Below are positions 4,241 through 64,000 of a stretch of DNA of 64,000 nucleotides, piece after piece. Location of the stretch: NCBI RefSeq assembly GCF_009914755.1, contig NC_060940.1. One strand, 5' to 3'. Origin of the DNA: the human T2T-CHM13v2.0 reference genome, Homo sapiens. The translations under genes and the position numbers were made by a program. Within the stretch, counting starts at the first letter, position 1; each line of letters begins with the position of its first letter. The notes beneath the pieces are model-generated. The model was not told the origin of the DNA and made no database searches. It worked only from the letters and a program-made list of their open reading frames with translations.

Positions 4241-5552
4241 AGGGCATCTGCCTGTATTCTTTAGCAAACTTGCTCACAGAAGGGGGAGAAATTACCAAAC
4301 TCCTGAGAATCCTCATCCTGGTTAGACATACTAATTTTCCCCACTCCAGGGCAGATTCTAAGATTAGGGGAATTATGCTAGGGGCACTTGGGAAGAGAAT
4401 GGGGGGTTGCTCTTTTGAATGATGAGAAAATAAGTAAATTAAAAGGCACCACGCTTTATCTTCTCACTGTTTTGTTTTCACACTGCTTCCTCTAATATGC
4501 TTTTACACTGCTTTCAACAGCCATGATGTCATCATATAAGCTTACAAAAGAAATTGCGGAAAAGGTGGAACTTTTGGGAAATGTGCTCAGAGGAGGAAAT
4601 TATTCTCCTGCCCTTACTCTCTCTGTCCACCAGTTTCATTTCTGTCCCCTTTCTCCAGAGAAAGGGGGATTCCTTTTTTTTTTTTTCTGATTGGAAGGAG
4701 ACCCCCATTCAATGTTTGTATGGGTTCTTTTACTAATTACAATAAAAGAGTTGCCATTCAAGAAGCCAAGTTTCTAATGAGGAAGTGAAAATAACCACCC
4801 TGCATATTAACTGCCGACCATCTCCACTTGCTGGATTAAATGTCAAGAAAAGATGCATTCACTGCTGGGTTTCTAATCTGCTTTGATTCACTAGTCTGCT
4901 TATGCATACTAGCTTTCCTGTTTTTTTTTAAGGTGTTATTTTCTTTACTGTTTAACAGGCTCAGGAAAGGCTTAAATTCATGAAGAGTGGGCCTGTAATA
5001 GGTTTGCAAGCAGAAAGTTAAGAATGCCTGGGATGTGTCTTGGGGTCATCACCAGTGTGGGTTACTATTATATTCACACACAGTAACCATCTGTTGATAT
5101 TGAAGGCAGTACTAGAACACAGCCAAGTGGTACTAAAACACAGTCTCTACCCCCACCCCTACCCCAGTCTACCCAGTACAACAATTTTTATATGACTTAC
5201 TAAGATTTAAAGGACCCCCTCAGATGCCACTCTTTTCCATTACTTTCACATGGTCAGATTTATTCTGAAATGTACTCATCATGAAAGTTTATTGCATTCT
5301 TTTTTTGTTCTTTACATCCTCTCTTGTATTTGTAAACCACATCCATTTTACAGAACACTTTTATGTTTGTTATCATATTTTAATCCTCACAGCCACCCTG
5401 GAATAATGAAGTATGTTAAGGACACAAATGCTGTTAATGATTCCACTCTTTAAGGTGATATCTTAATTAGTCAGTGAATGCACAGTTTCATGGCAGACTT
5501 TTCGAATGCTTTGGCATATGACTGCAAGTTAATGGCCTTCCCTGATGGGTGC

Positions 5553-39373: not shown

Positions 39374-39565
39374 AGCAGAGTTGGCAAACTTTTCATTTAA
39401 AGGGCCAGTTAGTAAATATTTTAGGCTTTGCAGACCACCTACATATTTTGCCACATATTCTTTGTTTGTTTAAAAATGTAAAAATAATTCTTAGATTGCA
39501 GGCTGTACAAAAATAGGCCATACCCAGATTTGGCCCACAGGTCACATTGCTTATTGATTCCTGGT
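39374..39565 (+). mobile_element. MER58 family element
   Basis: 'cagagttggcaaacttttc..aagggccagttagtaaatattttaggctttgca..gatttggcccacagg'. Confidence 0.75.
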
Positions 39566-48021: not shown

Positions 48022-49112
48022 CATCTTATTGGTTCTGTTTCTCTAGCTAACCCTAACAAATATACTGTCCTAAGAGTAATTGCCTTAGGAGGGTGCCCTT
48101 GCCTGAACATGAAAATGGATTCTGCCATCGTGGATCCTTGGGATGTCTGCATGTTTCCTTCCAGCACCTGCAGGAACAAATGGTTACATTTATGATTATG
48201 TATTCACCATCCATCCATCCATCACACAGTGATGTCCTAGAGTAAATGGCCATGTCTATTGTTTACTGCCACACCCCAAGGACCTATCATGTTAAATTAG
48301 TGTTGGATGAATAGACATGGAAGATCCTGTGAAGTCTCAATTTCATATTATCTGTTTGCTCTTATAACTCACAAGAAAATTAAAAGAACACATCTTTTTG
48401 TAGAGCTGATTGATATATTCACCAATACGATTAAGGTATTCATCACCCGTCAGTCTCTTATTTTAAACCAATATTTTACTGGGTTTATGTATTCAGTGCG
48501 AGAAAAACTTTACTCCAAATCCCTTATTATTATGGCTCCTTGTACCTTAAAGTCATACAGGTGCACTCAATATAAACGTGAGTGGGCGAGGGATGGAGCA
48601 GCTGTGATTGACAACAGTGACAATAGACTGTGGAGCAAGAAGTGACAGAAGTTTGCTGACTGGATTCTATATTTAATATTTCCAAGCAAATTAATTCTGT
48701 CACCTTTGTGAGACTTAGCTATGCTTCAGGGCATGACATTTTAGCCATGGTTTTTTTCTTCAGTTTTTTTGCATCTTGGATTGCAAACTTCTGGCTCTTA
48801 AATAAAAATAATGCTACATTGTTTATTTGCAAAGTAACCACATGGGACAGGGGAAAATGCACCAGAGGGGTAACCAATAGAGTGATCCAACTGGCGCAAA
48901 TTGTGTGCTTTTCTTAGATACCTTCCTTCTCATTACCTCTATCCTCAACTCTCTGTCTGCTACAATAAGGGGATGATTTAGATTTTTCTAAAGACTCCCT
49001 CCAACAATGGGAGCTTATGACTGAACACTTGACTCACCTGGCAGGTAAGAAGACCAGTGTCTTCCGTGCTGTGTCTCTCAGGATTTGTTTCAGAAGTATT
49101 CTCTACCCCGTT

Positions 49113-49113
49113 T

Positions 49114-49150
<37 letters not shown>

Positions 49151-49182
49151 TTCTCTGTCTCTCTCTCTCTCTTTCTCTCTCC

Positions 49183-49214
<32 letters not shown>

Positions 49215-56920: not shown

Positions 56921-57213
<293 letters not shown>

Positions 57214-59349
57214 CTATCAGGTTCACCTCCTATGAGGTAGGGCTTAACAACTGTTAACATTCAGTCCTCAAAACTATACCATTCAATTGACACAGCTATT
57301 TTCTCCACTATACATATGAGAAAACAAAGGCACAGAAAGGTTACAGAATTTCCCCAGGGTCAAACAGCTAATAAGCACCAAAGTTGAGATTCAAACCTGG
57401 GTCTGAACCCATACTTTTAACCCTCACACTATGCAATGCCTTTGCTACATGTGGGACAATGTTGTATTCCTCCATATCTTCCAAGGTCAAATATAAATAA
57501 TACCAACCAAAATCTGGGATCATTTTCTATGGAGGAAGGGAGGCACTGAGCAGGTTACCACAGGTTAGAGAATTTGTTCGTTCTTGTGTGAAATCTCCCA
57601 TGGAATCAACACATTCTATTATTATCTGCCCAGGATGGAGCTGGATACACTTCTTACAGTAGACATGATGATATCCAAGATCCATCTCTTCTCTCAGAGT
57701 TTGGTTTTCTATTCATATTCCAAAGCTGGCATTAGCAGACTCAAGAAGGGGTCCGTTGTTCAGTTTTTAACAAGATTTCAAACTCCTACTTAAAGCGTTC
57801 AGCTTTAAATCATTTTTCTTTTATTCATTCTTCAGAGATTTCTGAGGGATTGCCAATACTTGACTCTGCTTTGACAAAGCTATCCTTGGATATCAGATTA
57901 GATAAGATGATGAATTGTACTTAAAACTCCACATAAGTTAAAAGCCCAGGAGTTTTTGCCAGAAACTTTCTCAAACACAGTTAAATCTCATAACTTGCAA
58001 AGAATGGAGGGAGTTGAGTTTGCCTATGCAATAATCCAATTCATTAATGCTGTGGCTGGGATTACTGAAACCAACAATAGGAAAATGTTCTACATTATTT
58101 CCCCCAAAGAAGCCTATACAGCTAGCAGAAATCCCCCAGGTTATGAGAGGAAAACATTTAATTCTAAATGGAAGTTAACATCGACATTATGACCAGGGAT
58201 AAAATTTCTATACTTCATAGATTCTACAATGAGTATTTTCACCTTTTCACCTCCCGGAAATTGGAATGCATATCATAATCACTGTTGGCCAGGTGTCAGT
58301 CATGAGGGAGTTGTCACTGTCTGCATATGGGCATCGACATGTGCAGAATGGCTTGCAATGGCTTGCAAAAAAAAATTCTGAGACAATAGCAAATTCTCCT
58401 ACAGTTCATCACCAAGGTGCTTAGTGGTAGCGAACTTGCAGACACTGACAACCCAGGTGAAACAGTATTCAAAAGTGCAGGTGTTTTAAGAATGTCCCAA
58501 CAAATGAATTTCACTTTTATTTCTTTTTCTACAAAGATGTGTCTAAATAAGTTTTAACTAAATTTTAATAGGTAAAAAGTCAAGGTTTTAGGAATATCCC
58601 AACACATTTATTTCATTTATATTTCACCTTTCTAATAAAAGTGTGTCCAAATGTGTTTAAAATAAATGTTTTATGAGGCAAAAAGTAAAAGTTCTGAGTG
58701 ATAAGAAAGCAGTGAGCCTATGTAATTGGCAGTCTTTTTCTTTAAGTGTCTTAATCCTACATAACATACTGGTTTCCCTTTAATCAGTGAGGTCTTAGAT
58801 ACAATGAAATATGATAATTATCAGGTAGTATAATACTATGTTTATGAACTCTGATTTTGATGGCAGATAAGCTGGGCACAACTTTTGAGCTCGACAACAT
58901 ATTCCTTCAGTTAGTTTTCTCAAATTACTCATCTCGAAGCCTCAGTTACTCATCTAGAAAATTCAGGTGCCTATTTCATAATAGTGATGACAATGAGAGA
59001 ATGCATGTTGGACACTTAGCAGAGGGCCCACAAACTCTTAACATGTGAGTGGCTCTTGATTGTTCGCTGTCTTTGGCCAGAGACTCAAAAACATTTCTTT
59101 TTTTCCATCTTCCTTGTGAACATGAGGCTCTCAGAGAACTGTGGTCGATTTTCTTATCATTTCTGCAAAATCATTTTAGTGGACAGGGAGGAGAAAAATC
59201 CTCTAATAAAAAATCCTATCACTAAGTTGAGCATACATAAGCAGTACAACCCTCTCTCCTCACTCTGAAAGGTATATTTATAGCTGCAGAGGGCAGCTGA
59301 GGTCACCAGGAAGTGGATGGAAGAAGAGTCAGTTCATCATGGAGTGAAC

Positions 59350-60058
59350 ATTAACCAATTAGGAGCAAGGACCAGGAAGGAGTCAGACAGACAATTTCCC
59401 CCTCTCTTCTCCATGATGTGGTTCCTCCTTGCAGTCCTTCTAGAAAAGTCCAGAGTGCCAAGCAAATATACTGACTCTGGGGTCCTGCTGTGCTGCATCG
59501 TGGCTCATTGTGAACCAGTGGTCAATCCAGGGACTCATCTTTGTCAATGGTGCATCATTTCCTTTCCCTCCCCTTTGCCACTGGGGGCTTGCACTCCCAA
59601 ATATAATATCAGCACTTCAATCCATATCCCTGCCTTCTAGACCCTTAGCACACCCCCATGACACACATGCTGGTGAGGATGTTGAGTTCATGTGAAGCCT
59701 TGGTAATTTTGGTTGGAAACATGTTTCTAGAATCAAGGCAATGTGGTTTGGTCAAATTCAGATGAGATTGTGGAGCCGCGTGTCCTAGATTCCAGCTTTG
59801 GCTCTAGACCTTATAAACCAACCCTGTGGCCTTTAATCTCTCTCATCAGTCTAATGGAAATCATATTACCTGCCTTCCTTATCTGGAAATGTCATCATCA
59901 GGATCAAGAGAGATAAGGTTTGAGAAAGTAATGTGTAAGCCATTAAGTAGTACACAGATGACCATTACTGCTGTCAAACAGGAATTTGGTGCAATGAACT
60001 CTGTTCCCCTTTTCTTTCAACACAAGTGTTAAACGTTTATAAAATTATGAATACTTTA
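59350..60058 (+). repeat. Inverted duplication, left arm
   Basis: Reverse complement of 62895-63612; core 59664-60015 has only 2 mismatches in 352 bp. Confidence 0.97.
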
Positions 60059-60068
60059 TGTACTGCAT

Positions 60069-60467
60069 TGTATTAGTTTCTTAGGGCTTCGGTTACAAAG
60101 TACAGCACACTGGGTGGCTTGAAACAACAGGAATTTTTTATCTGATGGTTCTGTTGGCTACAAGTCCAAAATCAATGTAGTGGCAGGATCATACTTTCTC
60201 TAAAGACTAGAGTCTCCCCCTTTTCAGCTTTTAGTAACCCCAGGTGTTCCTTGGGTGTGGCAGTGTAACCAGTTCTGCCTCTGTTTTCACATGGTCATCT
60301 CCCTGAGCATCTCTGTGTCACCAAGTCTCAATCTAAGGACACTTCTCCTTGGATTTAGGGCCACCCTAATCCAGTATGACCTAATCGTAACTGGATTATA
60401 GCAGCAAAGGCCTCATTTCTAAATAAGGTCACATTCACAGGTAACTGGGTTTAGGTCTTCAACATAT
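60069..60467 (-). mobile_element. MLT1 MaLR LTR
   Basis: 'tgtattagtttcttaggg..acactgggtggcttgaaacaacaggaattt..tggatttagggccaccctaatccagtatgacct'. Confidence 0.8.
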
Positions 60468-62612
60468 GGATCTATGAAGGTAACATCATGAAGAGAAGCT
60501 CAATTCTTTTTAACAAGCAAAATAATCTCGCTCTTAGAAATTTCTCATCATCCATGCTAAAACTGCCATGTTTTTAGTTCAAAATCTCCTGAGCCAAATA
60601 TATCAAAACTTAGCTCTATAACAGTCATTTAAGTCTGTGCCATCCTTTAAAGACTTTTCAACATTCCAATAACCAAATCATCTTGGGTAAAAGGAAAAGA
60701 GGAAAAAACGGAGAAAGGAATTCACATTCTCTTTTACATTTACAGTCTGTTTCATCATCCAAGAGTGCAATAATCGTTTTATTTAATCATCACAAACAAC
60801 CTATAAACATTGTTTTTGTTTGTTTTATAGATGAGCAAACTGAAGCTCAAATAGTAAAGGGTCATGCCTAAAGACTCAGTGTAAATGGGAGAACTTTGGA
60901 CTCTAATGCTCATGTTTTGAATCAAAACACCAAGATGGCTCTTCTTATTTTCAATTTAATTCTCAAGTAAACGCTGTGTGTAAAAACTATCCCATCATTT
61001 TAGCAACTCAACATCAAAGATATAATCTGATCAATGAAGGATGATCCTCCAATCTCTTCACACTCTAGTGCCCAAGTTTTTTGGTTGAGGAATCTCTCAC
61101 TTAGGAATCCTCCTATACACTGAATCTGAATGGCCCCAAGTGCTGGGTTATAGCTACCTTGCACCTCAGTCCTTGGTCATTCATTTATTCATCCATTTAG
61201 TGAATATTGTTGGACATCTATGTGCTATGTATAGGGTTCCAATAATGACTAAAACAAGCCCTTATGGAGCTTACAGTTTCTTGGTGGCTAAAGCATTGGC
61301 CCTGCAGGTCAAATCAGCATTTCACTTTCAATGCTAAGGATGGAAATGACTTTGGTCAAATCAACCTAAAACTGAAAAGCCAAGAAGGAAAAAACGATGT
61401 TTATATACTTGATGTGAATCAGTTCAATCAATTCCTACAGGTCATAGACTTCTCCTTGTCTCAGAGCCCAGTAAATATTACTGGAGAGAGAGAGAGAGAG
61501 AGAGAGAATGAAGAAACTGCCAAAAAATGAACAAAAGAGGGAATGAAAGGAATGTCCATCTATGCAAGCAACTCTTGGTTGCAATATTACCTTTTTCCAT
61601 ATCACAGAGGATGTTTGAAGAAAAATATTACTTCTAAGTGCATAAGCACTGACCTGCTTTAATAATTCAGATCAGAGTACAGGTTCTAAGATCTTCCAGA
61701 ATGTTGCATTAAAATCTAAGATACACAAGGCAGGAAAAGGTATAGTCAAATTCGAGGGCACAAAAGTCAGCCACCATGGGTGGGCTGGAAAGGGGTGAGG
61801 GGAGTTCTCCCTGCAAAGTGCCAGGGAGAAGGTTTTGCTGATGCCAGAGAACAATGGAGACAGGGAAGAAGTAGGGAGAGTCAGAGGCACCTCAGATTAG
61901 TTTGTTTTTCCTTCCTATAGATTTCTATGTGTTTGAAATCTTTGAGACCTTTTTTCCCCTTTGTCTTCTGAAACACATGAAAATGTTCAGTGTAATGCAT
62001 TTGTCATCAAGGCAGATAAAGCACATCTGCAGTCAGCCAAGAATAATGTAGCAATGGCCCAATTGTGTCTGGGTCTGCATTTGACTAGCTGTATGCAGTT
62101 CTCCAACCTGGACAAGGTCAGAATGAGTTCCTATCACCAGGCTTTATCAAGTAGCCATGAGTCTGGACAAAAGCAAATCATGCGTGTTCACTGCATCATT
62201 GTTTGCAATGCTGAAGACTGGGAGTGGCCCAAATATTACTGGAAGGGGAATTGATACTTACACTATGGTGAATTCAAATAATGCAGCTCCATGCAAAGCG
62301 TTCAGGCAAAACAGCTAGATCCATATGGAGTAACATGGCTAAATTGTACACATTTAGTGACACATGTAACTGTAATATAATTATTTATGTGTGTTTTATT
62401 TATAAATTATATACATGTTCAATCATACTAGTATATTTTATACCTTCTAAAGTATATACTAGATGAAAATAAAAAAGAATGAGATGAAAAATAAAAATGA
62501 AAATATTTTCTTGTTGACCCCAGTGGATTATGTTGCAGACATAAAATTTGAAGACCATAGCTCTCATATATAGTGTTAACTGAAAGGGACACAGTATCTA
62601 GCATTTCCTCTA

Positions 62613-62845
62613 GCAGAGGCATTGGCAAACGTTTTCTATGAAGGGCCAAATAGTAAATATTTTCAGCTTTTGGGCCAGACAGTCTCTGTCACAACTGAAA
62701 ATACTCAACTCTGCCCTGGTAGTGTGAAAGTGGCTGTGGCAATATGTAAAGAAATGCACATGGCTGAGTTCCAATAAAACTTTGTTTACAAAAAGGACTG
62801 CCTTTAGAATTTCACCTGTGGGTCATAGTTTTTTGACCACTGCTC
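62613..62845 (+). mobile_element. MER58A
   Basis: 'ggcaaacgttttctatgaagggccaaatagtaaatattttcagcttt..actcaactctgcc..gttccaataaaacttt'. Confidence 0.8.
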
Positions 62846-62894
62846 TGGTAAAATATCATTTGTATAAAAGCCAAAAAACACACGCAACTTACTT

Positions 62895-63612
62895 GAAGTT
62901 TTCACAACTGTATAAATGTTTAACACTGAACTTGTATTGACAGAAAAGGGGAACAGAGTTCATTGCATCAAATTCCTGTTTGACAGCAGTAATGGTCATC
63001 TGTGTACTACTTAATGGCTTACACATTACTTTCTCAAACCTTATCTCTCTTGATCCTGATGATGACATTTCCAGATAAGGAAGGCAGGTAATATGATTTC
63101 CATTAGACTGATGAGAGAGATAAAAGGCCACAGGGTTGGTTTATAAGGTCTAGAGCCAAAGCTGGAATCTAGGACACGCGGCTCCACAATCTCATCTGAA
63201 TTTGACCAAACCACATTGCCTTGATTCTAGAAACATGTTTCCAACCAAAATTACCAAGGCTTCACATGAACTCAACATCCTCACCAGCATGTGGGTCATG
63301 GGAGTGTGCTAAGCGTCTAGAATGCAGGGATATGGATTGAATTGTTGATATTTTATTTGGGAAGTGTAAGTCCCCAGTGGTGAAGGGGAGGGAAAGGAAA
63401 TGATGCAAAGTATCTATGGAGATGGCCTCCTGGATTGACCACTGGTTCACAATGAGCCACGATGCAGCACAGCAGGACCCCAGAGTCAGTATATTTGCTT
63501 GGCACTCTGGACTTTTCCAGAAGAACTGTAAGGAGGGACCATATCATAGAGATGAGAGGGGAAAATTGTCTGTTTGGCTCTTTCCTGTCCTTTGCTTTCC
63601 ATTGATTTCAAT
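62895..63612 (-). repeat. Inverted duplication, right arm
   Basis: Reverse complement of 59350-60058; the ORF track shows near-identical peptides on opposite strands (59826+ and 62889-). Confidence 0.97.
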
Positions 63613-64000
63613 GGGATAAAACAACATAGAAATTTCAGTAATCTTATCCTATAAATTTTGGTAATCTCCATTAGTGCTGTGGTTCAATCTGAGAAGACTA
63701 TCACCGGGGCTTCTGTTATGATCCCATGGGCAGTTTCTTCAATCACCTACAGGAGATAAAAGGGTGAGTGTTATAGGATGAAAATATCACCCTGCTTTGT
63801 ATATGTGTGTATTTTTAAATGAAACCTGTAGAATTGAAAAATTCAGAAAGTTATAAAGGATGTTGTTATAATTATCAGTGTATCTAATGGATGATGTCAG
63901 AACTATTGAAGTATCTACCTTATTTGTGATAATATATATTTTAAGATAATAAAACATGACAGGTAAAGATGAAGTCTCTTATGTTTTCCTCCCTATGCTT

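What the first reader, a model, noticed from the sequence alone, without database searches (positions are those of the whole stretch)
59350..63612. Invertible cassette: ~0.7-kb inverted repeats around a ~2.8-kb spacer
Seen: 59350-60058 is the reverse complement of 62895-63612. The arms are mostly unique sequence plus a MIR-like fragment, so their identity cannot come from two independent insertions of an ancient SINE. Established: near-identical inverted repeats are substrates for NAHR and produce recurrent inversion polymorphisms. Inference: the spacer (~60060-62890) probably occurs in both orientations in the population. It may already be catalogued; I recall IR-flanked human inversions of similar span in InvFEST but cannot verify the locus here.
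Basis: partly seen in the sequence, partly recalled or inferred. Interest (0 to 1): 0.8.

Follow-up and report, generated by a model that had tools for sequence, protein, structure and literature searches.

The report
Old inverted repeat, partly homogenised arms
Two 0.7-kb copies of the same non-coding sequence face each other across 2.8 kb of DNA about 140 kb from the TOX3 gene; they are an old local duplication whose cores have recently been copied onto each other, and published surveys list no flipping of the middle piece.

Summary
Window 59353-60062 is the reverse complement of 62890-63607: 718 aligned columns, 60 differences, 91.6% identity. A 2,827-bp spacer lies between the arms.

"Near-identical" holds for only part of the arms. 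Two tracts are 100% (89 bp) and 99.4% (334 bp) identical. The other 287 bp are 79-87% identical (K2P 0.20 against 0.005). No permutation of the differences reproduces this clustering (0 of 200,000).

The arm has only these two copies in the whole CHM13 genome, within the sensitivity of the search. There is no target-site duplication, no transposase, no Rfam hit and no hidden symmetry in the spacer.

Best reading: an ancient local inverted duplication whose arms still exchange sequence by gene conversion. It is therefore a plausible NAHR substrate.

No call lies here in a T2T-based callset of 373 inverted regions from 41 genomes. None lies here in a 612-region catalogue of IR-flanked candidates, or in the 45- and 22-inversion InvFEST-derived sets. 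Inverted duplication pairs chosen by structure alone were polymorphic in 6 of 319 cases (1.9%).

This is an ordinary member of a known kind, of low interest.

The parts
59353..60062 (+). Left arm of the inverted repeat (710 bp)
   Evidence: reverse complement of 62890-63607, 91.64% over 718 columns
62890..63607 (-). Right arm of the inverted repeat (718 bp). It overlaps the annotated terminal exon 62913-63746 of lncRNA LOC107984901 (hub table) and the first 91 bp of the RefSeq enhancer 63517-64716
   Evidence: the only other copy of the left arm in the whole assembly
60063..62889 (.). Spacer, 2,827 bp, non-coding and not palindromic
   Evidence: Best internal inverted alignment scores 31 against a shuffle maximum of 40. 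No Pfam hit reached a curated cut-off. No Rfam match. Holds a (GA)n run at 61483-61508 and an old repeat at 62612-62794 with diverged copies elsewhere in the window
59655..59988 (+). Long near-identical tract (334 bp, 2 differences, 99.4%), pairing with 63302-62969. Read as a recent gene-conversion tract and the most likely place for any NAHR crossover
   Evidence: perfect runs of 171 and 153 bp. Longest stretch with at most 1 difference is 325 columns; the largest in 200,000 permutations was 188; the 2 differences are at 59663 and 59835
59443..59531 (+). Second identical tract (89 bp, 100%), pairing with 63517-63429
59775..59985 (+). MIR-like segment inside the left arm, mirrored in the right arm; limits approximate
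   Evidence: Recalled resemblance to the MIR consensus only; not tested by any search

Best explanation
This is an ancient, locus-specific inverted duplication. A non-coding segment of about 0.7 kb, which already contained a MIR-like element, was copied in inverted orientation 2.8 kb away tens of millions of years ago. Since then the arms have diverged to about 80-87% identity. The exceptions are two tracts (89 bp and 334 bp) that were overwritten much more recently by gene conversion between the arms and are now 99.4-100% identical. The structure is therefore recombinationally active, and in principle it can invert its spacer by NAHR within the 334-bp tract. It behaves as a fixed-orientation locus, or at most a rare variant, in the human samples surveyed so far. 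It has no evident coding, RNA-family or transposon function. Shown: the repeat, its mosaic identity, its two-copy status and its absence from the inversion lists I could search. Inferred: gene conversion as the cause of the mosaic, the age, and the lack of common polymorphism.
For: Repeat and limits. Mosaic identity: 0 differences in 89 bp and 2 in 334 bp, against 50 in the other 287 bp. K2P is 0.0047 against 0.203. The longest stretch with at most 1 difference is 325 columns; 0 of 200,000 permutations reached it, and the largest was 188. Two copies only in the 3.1-Gb CHM13 assembly, by DNA search of the whole arm and of two halves, and by two translated searches. A 123-bp low-identity piece still retrieved the partner and nothing else. 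No other copy in the window by BLAST or nhmmer. No target-site duplication at the outer ends. No long ORF, and no Pfam hit above a curated cut-off among the 8 of 26 ORFs scanned. No Rfam match. No inversion listed here: Porubsky 2023 Table S1 has 0 chr16 coordinates beginning 5808, 5809 or 5810, the single 5809 token being chr7. Moreira-Pinhal 2026 Table S1 has no chr16 row anywhere in hg38 52.21-52.34 Mb. Base rate for structure-only inverted SD pairs: 6 of 319 polymorphic in 54 people.
Against: Only one haplotype (CHM13) could be read, so orientation in other people and in apes is unknown. Gene conversion between inverted arms goes with crossovers, so rare or recurrent inversion is not excluded. 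[quoted passage not shown] My hg38 position (about chr16:52.294-52.299 Mb) rests on a recalled hg38 coordinate for the 3' end of TOX3, combined with the TOX3 exons I located in CHM13. The 5234 prefix (8 tokens, 2 shown) was not fully resolved. The near-identical tracts could instead be conserved elements; that needs orthologues to test. The genome searches cannot see copies below roughly 80-90% identity: the 90-bp, 79%-identical outer piece did not retrieve even its partner.
Confidence: 0.7

Rival explanations
1. One reading: a polymorphic, possibly recurrent NAHR inversion. The 2.8-kb spacer exists in both orientations in present-day humans through crossovers inside the arms.
For: Inverted arms with a 325-column stretch carrying at most one difference and perfect runs of 171 and 153 bp. 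The mosaic identity shows that the arms do recombine. Validated NAHR inversions of the same scale exist: HsInv0040 (IR 755/756 bp, inverted segment 3,589 bp) and HsInv0061 (IR 654/656 bp, 1,674 bp), both made of 'unique sequence + several TEs'.
Against: Those two have 99.9% and 99.7% arm identity, against 91.6% here. The lowest identity among the NAHR inversions in that table is 93.7%, in 7-kb arms. No call at this place among 373 inverted regions from 41 genomes on T2T coordinates. None among 612 IR-flanked candidates merged from five SV studies plus InvFEST paired-end predictions. Only 6 of 319 structure-selected inverted SD pairs, which are longer than these arms, were polymorphic.
Confidence: 0.06
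2. The near-identical tracts are not conversion tracts. They are functional elements (for example an exapted MIR enhancer, or the lncRNA exon) kept unchanged in both copies by purifying selection since the duplication.
For: The right arm overlaps an annotated lncRNA terminal exon and touches a RefSeq enhancer (hub table). Two adjacent CpGs at 59777 and 59779 survive in both arms inside the long tract.
Against: It needs about 40-fold lower divergence (K2P 0.005 against 0.20) over 334 contiguous bases in both copies, with sharp edges. That is ultraconserved-element behaviour in a sequence largely made of a SINE-like relic. The left copy has no annotation. No Rfam family matches.
Confidence: 0.06
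3. A relic DNA transposon with long terminal inverted repeats, or two independent insertions of one old interspersed-repeat family that happen to face each other.
For: Background arm identity of about 80-87% is in the range of old repeat families. The genome searches are blind below roughly 80-90% identity and did not pick up other MIR copies, so diverged family members could have been missed.
Against: Only two copies in 3.1 Gb at the sensitivity reached. No target-site duplication. No transposase or other domain in the spacer. The same MIR-like insert sits at the same place in both arms (the MIR identity is recalled). No copy in the other 59 kb of the window by nhmmer, apart from one weak 92-base hit at E = 0.016.
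Confidence: 0.04
4. The inverted duplication is itself the scar of an ancient inversion made by staggered breaks, which leaves inverted duplications at the two breakpoints. On this reading the arms are a product of an inversion rather than its substrate.
For: This is a known route to short inverted duplications flanking an inverted segment (established knowledge, recalled). The arms are old and the spacer is unique.
Against: Nothing in a single genome tells this apart from replication-based template switching. It is compatible with the best explanation for everything that happened after the origin.
Confidence: 0.1

Closest known systems
HsInv0040 (chr2) and HsInv0061 (chr6), validated human NAHR inversions in InvFEST / Giner-Delgado 2019 Supplementary Data 1 (read)
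   Same: Short inverted repeats (755/756 bp and 654/656 bp) made of 'unique sequence + several TEs' (HsInv0061 includes a MIR3) flank an inverted segment of a few kb (3,589 and 1,674 bp). This is the same architecture and scale as here (710/718 bp arms, 2,827 bp spacer).
   Different: Their arms are 99.9% and 99.7% identical over the full length, and both orientations were genotyped in people. Here identity is 91.6% overall, only 423 of 718 columns are near-identical, and no second orientation is on record.
Inverted segmental-duplication pairs tested by Moreira-Pinhal et al. 2026 (PMC13629690; sections 4, 7, 13 and part of Table S1 read)
   Same: Low-copy inverted repeats of at least 90% identity a short distance apart, treated as candidate NAHR substrates. 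Most are monomorphic (6 of 319 polymorphic).
   Different: Those pairs are 1-50 kb long by definition. This pair is under 1 kb, so it falls below the SD threshold and was not in that selection.
Large sex-chromosome palindromes with arm-to-arm gene conversion (human Y P1-P8 and X palindromes; recalled, not read here)
   Same: Inverted arms around a unique spacer, with arm identity kept up by intrachromosomal gene conversion.
   Different: Those arms span tens of kb to Mb, are over 99.9% identical along their whole length and carry genes. Here the arms are 0.7 kb, conversion covers only part of them, and nothing coding is present.

Membership tests
IR-mediated (NAHR) polymorphic inversion, InvFEST type | Inverted repeats at both breakpoints | tested here: met
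IR-mediated (NAHR) polymorphic inversion, InvFEST type | A stretch of near-perfect identity long enough for homologous exchange (about 200-300 bp; threshold recalled) | tested here: met
   325 columns with at most 1 difference; perfect runs of 171 and 153 bp
IR-mediated (NAHR) polymorphic inversion, InvFEST type | Both orientations observed in the population | not testable with these tools
   Only the CHM13 haplotype is held. Indirectly, there is no entry at the locus in the lists searched
IR-mediated (NAHR) polymorphic inversion, InvFEST type | Overall arm identity in the range of validated cases (93.7-99.9% in Giner-Delgado 2019 Supplementary Data 1) | tested here: not met
   91.64% against the table read
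Segmental duplication (UCSC definition as quoted in PMC13629690 Methods) | At least 1 kb long, at least 90% identical, not made wholly of transposable elements | tested here: not met
   Identity of 91.6% passes, but length of 710/718 bp fails
DNA transposon with long terminal inverted repeats | Target-site duplication outside the repeats | tested here: not met
   Only a displaced 5-mer is shared
DNA transposon with long terminal inverted repeats | Transposase remnant between the repeats | tested here: not met
   Longest open frame is 118 aa. No Pfam hit above a curated cut-off in the 8 of 26 ORFs scanned
DNA transposon with long terminal inverted repeats | Further copies of the repeats in the genome | tested here: not met
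   2 of 2 matches are the locus itself. Sensitivity is limited to roughly 80-90% identity or more
Palindrome maintained by arm-to-arm gene conversion | Arm identity far above the level expected from the age of the duplication | tested here: inconclusive
   True for 423 of 718 columns (K2P 0.005) but not for the rest (K2P 0.20). Concerted evolution across species was not testable

The most novel reading that the evidence does not exclude
The arms are still exchanging, so the 2.8-kb spacer flips recurrently at low frequency in the germline or somatically. That would make this an uncatalogued, recurrent micro-inversion in the CASC22-TOX3 association region (polycystic ovary syndrome, age at menopause, breast cancer). 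Alternatively, read-through transcription of the minus-strand lncRNA across both arms would yield a long hairpin RNA with a perfect duplex of about 330 bp.
Probability: 0.06. Interest if true: 0.4.

Novelty: new member of a known kind. Interest (0 to 1): 0.15.

Why it matters
It matters little. Short inverted low-copy repeats are common in the human genome, and most do not give detectable inversion polymorphisms. This locus is a clean small example of partial homogenisation by gene conversion in arms that fall below the 1-kb segmental-duplication threshold, so SD-based inversion screens do not consider it. Even if it flipped, the functional effect would probably be small. The spacer has no gene, and a crossover in the identical tract would leave the overlapping lncRNA exon almost unchanged. 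The one feature that raises interest is its place about 140 kb from TOX3, inside a region tied by GWAS to ovarian and breast phenotypes.

Tried and rejected
1. Rfam at E up to 1 over 58500-64000: 0 matches.

2. Hidden palindromic continuation into the spacer: best score 31 against a shuffle maximum of 40, so rejected.

3. Coding or transposase content: 26 stop-to-stop ORFs of at least 60 aa, the longest 118 aa. Of the 8 scanned in Pfam, only three had sub-threshold chance hits.

4. Tests of the MIR label. BLAST and nhmmer of the arm against the window found no other copy. DNA and translated searches of the whole genome with the MIR-like part returned only the locus itself plus E > 0.1 noise. 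These searches cannot see old SINE copies, so the label stays untested.

5. Sensitivity control. The 79%-identical outer 90 bp did not retrieve its own partner, so 'two copies' holds only for roughly 80-90% identity or more.

7. Porubsky 2022 (Cell) is not held under the PMC id I recalled or its DOI. Supplements of its bioRxiv version are closed.

8. Phrase searches such as '16 522' across table cells do not work. The positive control '16 557' failed, so say nothing.

9. My first guess of the hg38 position (52.35-52.38 Mb) was wrong. I corrected it after locating the TOX3 exons.

10. The inversion benchmark supplement gave 0 tokens, but only 35,069 characters were read as text, so this is a weak negative.

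Full report
OBSERVATION

The inverted repeat is real. The repeat finder reports three collinear inverted pairs between 59353-60027 and 62930-63607. A gapped self-BLAST of 57000-64000 joins them into one match, 59353-60062 against 63607-62890: 718 columns, 52 mismatches, 3 gap openings, 91.64% identity, E given as 0.0. A global alignment with 50-base margins shows that similarity stops within a few bases of these ends on both sides. The arms are 710 and 718 bp long, and the spacer is 60063-62889 (2,827 bp). In the assembly the locus is CHM13 chr16:58,091,353-58,095,607.

THE ARMS ARE A MOSAIC

"Near-identical" is only partly true. Of the 60 differing columns (52 substitutions, 8 gap columns):
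- none lie in 59443-59531 (89 bp);
- two lie in 59655-59988 (334 bp, 99.4%), which contains perfect runs of 171 and 153 bp;
- the three remaining segments are 78.9%, 82.9% and 86.5% identical.

The longest stretch with at most one difference is 325 columns. When the 60 differences were placed at random 200,000 times, none reached 325 and the largest was 188. The longest perfect run (171) was reached once.

Kimura distances are 0.0047 in the two tracts (423 sites, 0 transitions, 2 transversions) and 0.203 in the rest (287 sites, 35 transitions, 15 transversions). I used substitution rates recalled from the literature, 0.5 to 2.2 x 10^-9 per site per year. At those rates the background distance means a duplication roughly 46-200 million years old, and the tracts were made alike within about the last 1-5 million years. 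The rates, and therefore the dates, are my assumption.

WHAT THE ARMS AND SPACER ARE NOT

No Rfam family matches at E up to 1.

The locus holds 26 stop-to-stop frames of at least 60 aa, the longest 118 aa. I scanned 8 of them in Pfam, and none reached a curated cut-off.

The spacer has no inverted self-similarity beyond chance: score 31, shuffle maximum 40.

There is no target-site duplication at the outer ends.

Elsewhere in the window the arm has no copy. BLAST gives hits only to a (GA)n run and to an old repeat at 62612-62794. nhmmer gives one weak 92-base hit at E = 0.016.

In the whole 3.1-Gb assembly, the full arm, its two halves and two translated frames match only the locus itself at significant E-values. 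A 123-bp piece from a low-identity segment still found its partner and nothing else. The 90-bp outer piece, 79% identical to its partner, did not find even that partner. "Two copies" is therefore established only down to somewhere between 80% and 90% identity.

The same searches did not return other MIR copies. I share that impression, but no tool here could test it.

MOST LIKELY MECHANISM

A local inverted duplication of about 0.7 kb of non-coding DNA arose long ago. The arms then drifted apart, and two patches were later overwritten by gene conversion between the arms. This is the ordinary behaviour of inverted low-copy repeats and, on a larger scale, of the sex-chromosome palindromes (recalled).

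Conversion shows that the arms pair and exchange sequence, so a crossover in the 334-bp tract could invert the spacer. Two other things cannot be decided from one genome:
- whether the tracts instead reflect constraint on both copies;
- how the duplication arose (template switching, or a staggered-break inversion that left inverted duplications).

IS THE SPACER POLYMORPHIC IN ORIENTATION?

This could not be tested directly, because only CHM13 is held. I therefore looked for the locus in published lists.

(a) Porubsky et al. 2023 (PMC10150506; passages of the main text and a search of its supplements). The study reports 373 inverted regions, 296 of them balanced, from 41 genomes on T2T-CHM13 v1.1/v2.0 coordinates. 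Tokens beginning 5808, 5809 and 5810 occur 0, 1 and 1 times. The 5809 token is a chr7 coordinate and the 5810 token is not a chr16 coordinate.

(b) Moreira-Pinhal et al. 2026 (PMC13629690; abstract, sections 4, 7 and 13, Table S1 part 1, and prefix searches). The paper lists 612 IR-flanked candidate regions, merged from five SV studies of 195 individuals, InvFEST paired-end predictions and inverted SD pairs.

To place the locus on hg38, I first located a TOX-type HMG-box exon at chr16:58,243,833-58,244,135 (Pfam HMG_box, E = 2.5e-12). I also located a glutamine-rich terminal coding exon ending at 58,237,116-58,237,118, on the minus strand. That stop codon lies 141.5 kb beyond the right arm. 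The literature places CASC22 next to TOX3, so I take this gene to be TOX3. With my recalled hg38 3' end of TOX3 (52,438,005), the offset is about 5.80 Mb and the locus is at about hg38 chr16:52.294-52.299 Mb. This position is an estimate from recall.

A row for this locus would contribute four coordinates beginning 5229. The tables hold one such token, in a chr12 row. More widely, prefixes 5221-5233 and 5235-5238 give no chr16 position. Prefix 5234 has 8 tokens, of which 2 were shown, on chr13 and chrX.

(c) Giner-Delgado et al. 2019 (PMC6748972; Supplementary Data 1 part 1 and a supplement search). Its two chr16 inversions lie at hg18 73.8 and 83.7 Mb.

(d) Aguado et al. 2014 (PMC3961182; passages). 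'chr16' occurs 0 times, in tables that use that format.

(e) An inversion benchmark (PMC13721702) gave no token, but only 35,069 characters of its supplements were searchable.

Base rate. Among 319 inverted SD pairs chosen by structure alone (1-50 kb, at least 90% identity, less than 250 kb apart), 6 (1.9%) showed both orientations in 54 people. The arms here are shorter than any of those. They are also less alike overall than every NAHR inversion in Giner-Delgado's table, where identity runs from 93.7% to 99.9%. I put the chance of a polymorphism at appreciable frequency at about 5%. [quoted passage not shown]

COMPARISON WITH KNOWN CASES

The nearest known cases are HsInv0040 and HsInv0061:
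- HsInv0040: IR 755/756 bp, 99.9% identical, 3,589 bp inverted, "unique sequence + several TEs".
- HsInv0061: IR 654/656 bp, 99.7% identical, 1,674 bp inverted, including a MIR3.

The architecture and scale are the same as here. They differ in having near-perfect arms throughout and a demonstrated second orientation.

The locus fails the 1-kb length criterion for a segmental duplication, which explains why SD-based screens would skip it. It fails three tested features of a long-TIR transposon: target-site duplication, transposase and further copies.

CONTEXT

The right arm carries nearly all of the annotated terminal exon (62913-63746, minus strand) of the predicted lncRNA LOC107984901, and its outer 91 bp fall in a RefSeq enhancer (hub table). 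The left arm is therefore an inverted near-copy of that exon. A crossover in the identical tract would exchange almost identical sequence, so an inversion would barely change the transcript.

The locus lies in the CASC22-TOX3 interval. Papers link this interval to polycystic ovary syndrome, age at menopause and breast cancer (passages only). Nothing ties the repeat itself to those signals.

VERDICT

This is an ordinary small inverted low-copy repeat with a clear gene-conversion mosaic. I rate it a new member of a known kind, with low interest.

Noticed in passing
G000 C16:58,237,116-58,244,135 (loci L007; outside the window, about 141.5 kb beyond the right arm): Minus-strand TOX-type gene, taken to be TOX3 from its published neighbourhood with CASC22. 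It has an HMG-box exon (Pfam HMG_box, E = 2.5e-12) and a glutamine-rich terminal coding exon. I used it to anchor the window to hg38.
   Followed up: partly
window 62913-63746 (hub annotation) against 59353-60062: The terminal exon of predicted lncRNA LOC107984901 lies almost wholly in the right arm, so the left arm is an inverted near-copy of it. The annotated 3' end (62913) has no canonical AATAAA within 50 nt upstream in the alignment.
   Followed up: no
window 58471-58587 and 58575-58693: A diverged direct (tandem-like) repeat, 76.9% identical over 121 columns, about 0.7 kb upstream of the left arm.
   Followed up: no
window 62612-62794; also 267-432 and 39374-39429: An old interspersed repeat at the inner edge of the spacer, with 74-85% identical copies elsewhere in the window. 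By recall it resembles MER5A (hAT-Charlie); this was not tested.
   Followed up: no
window 61483-61508; also 2755-2780 and 49111-49197: (GA)n microsatellite in the spacer, with similar runs elsewhere in the window.
   Followed up: no
window 60068-60470: The left arm's inner boundary (60062) sits within about 6 bp of the start of what looks, by recall, like another old interspersed repeat. The original homology may have been cut short by an insertion. No resumed homology was found deeper in the spacer.
   Followed up: partly
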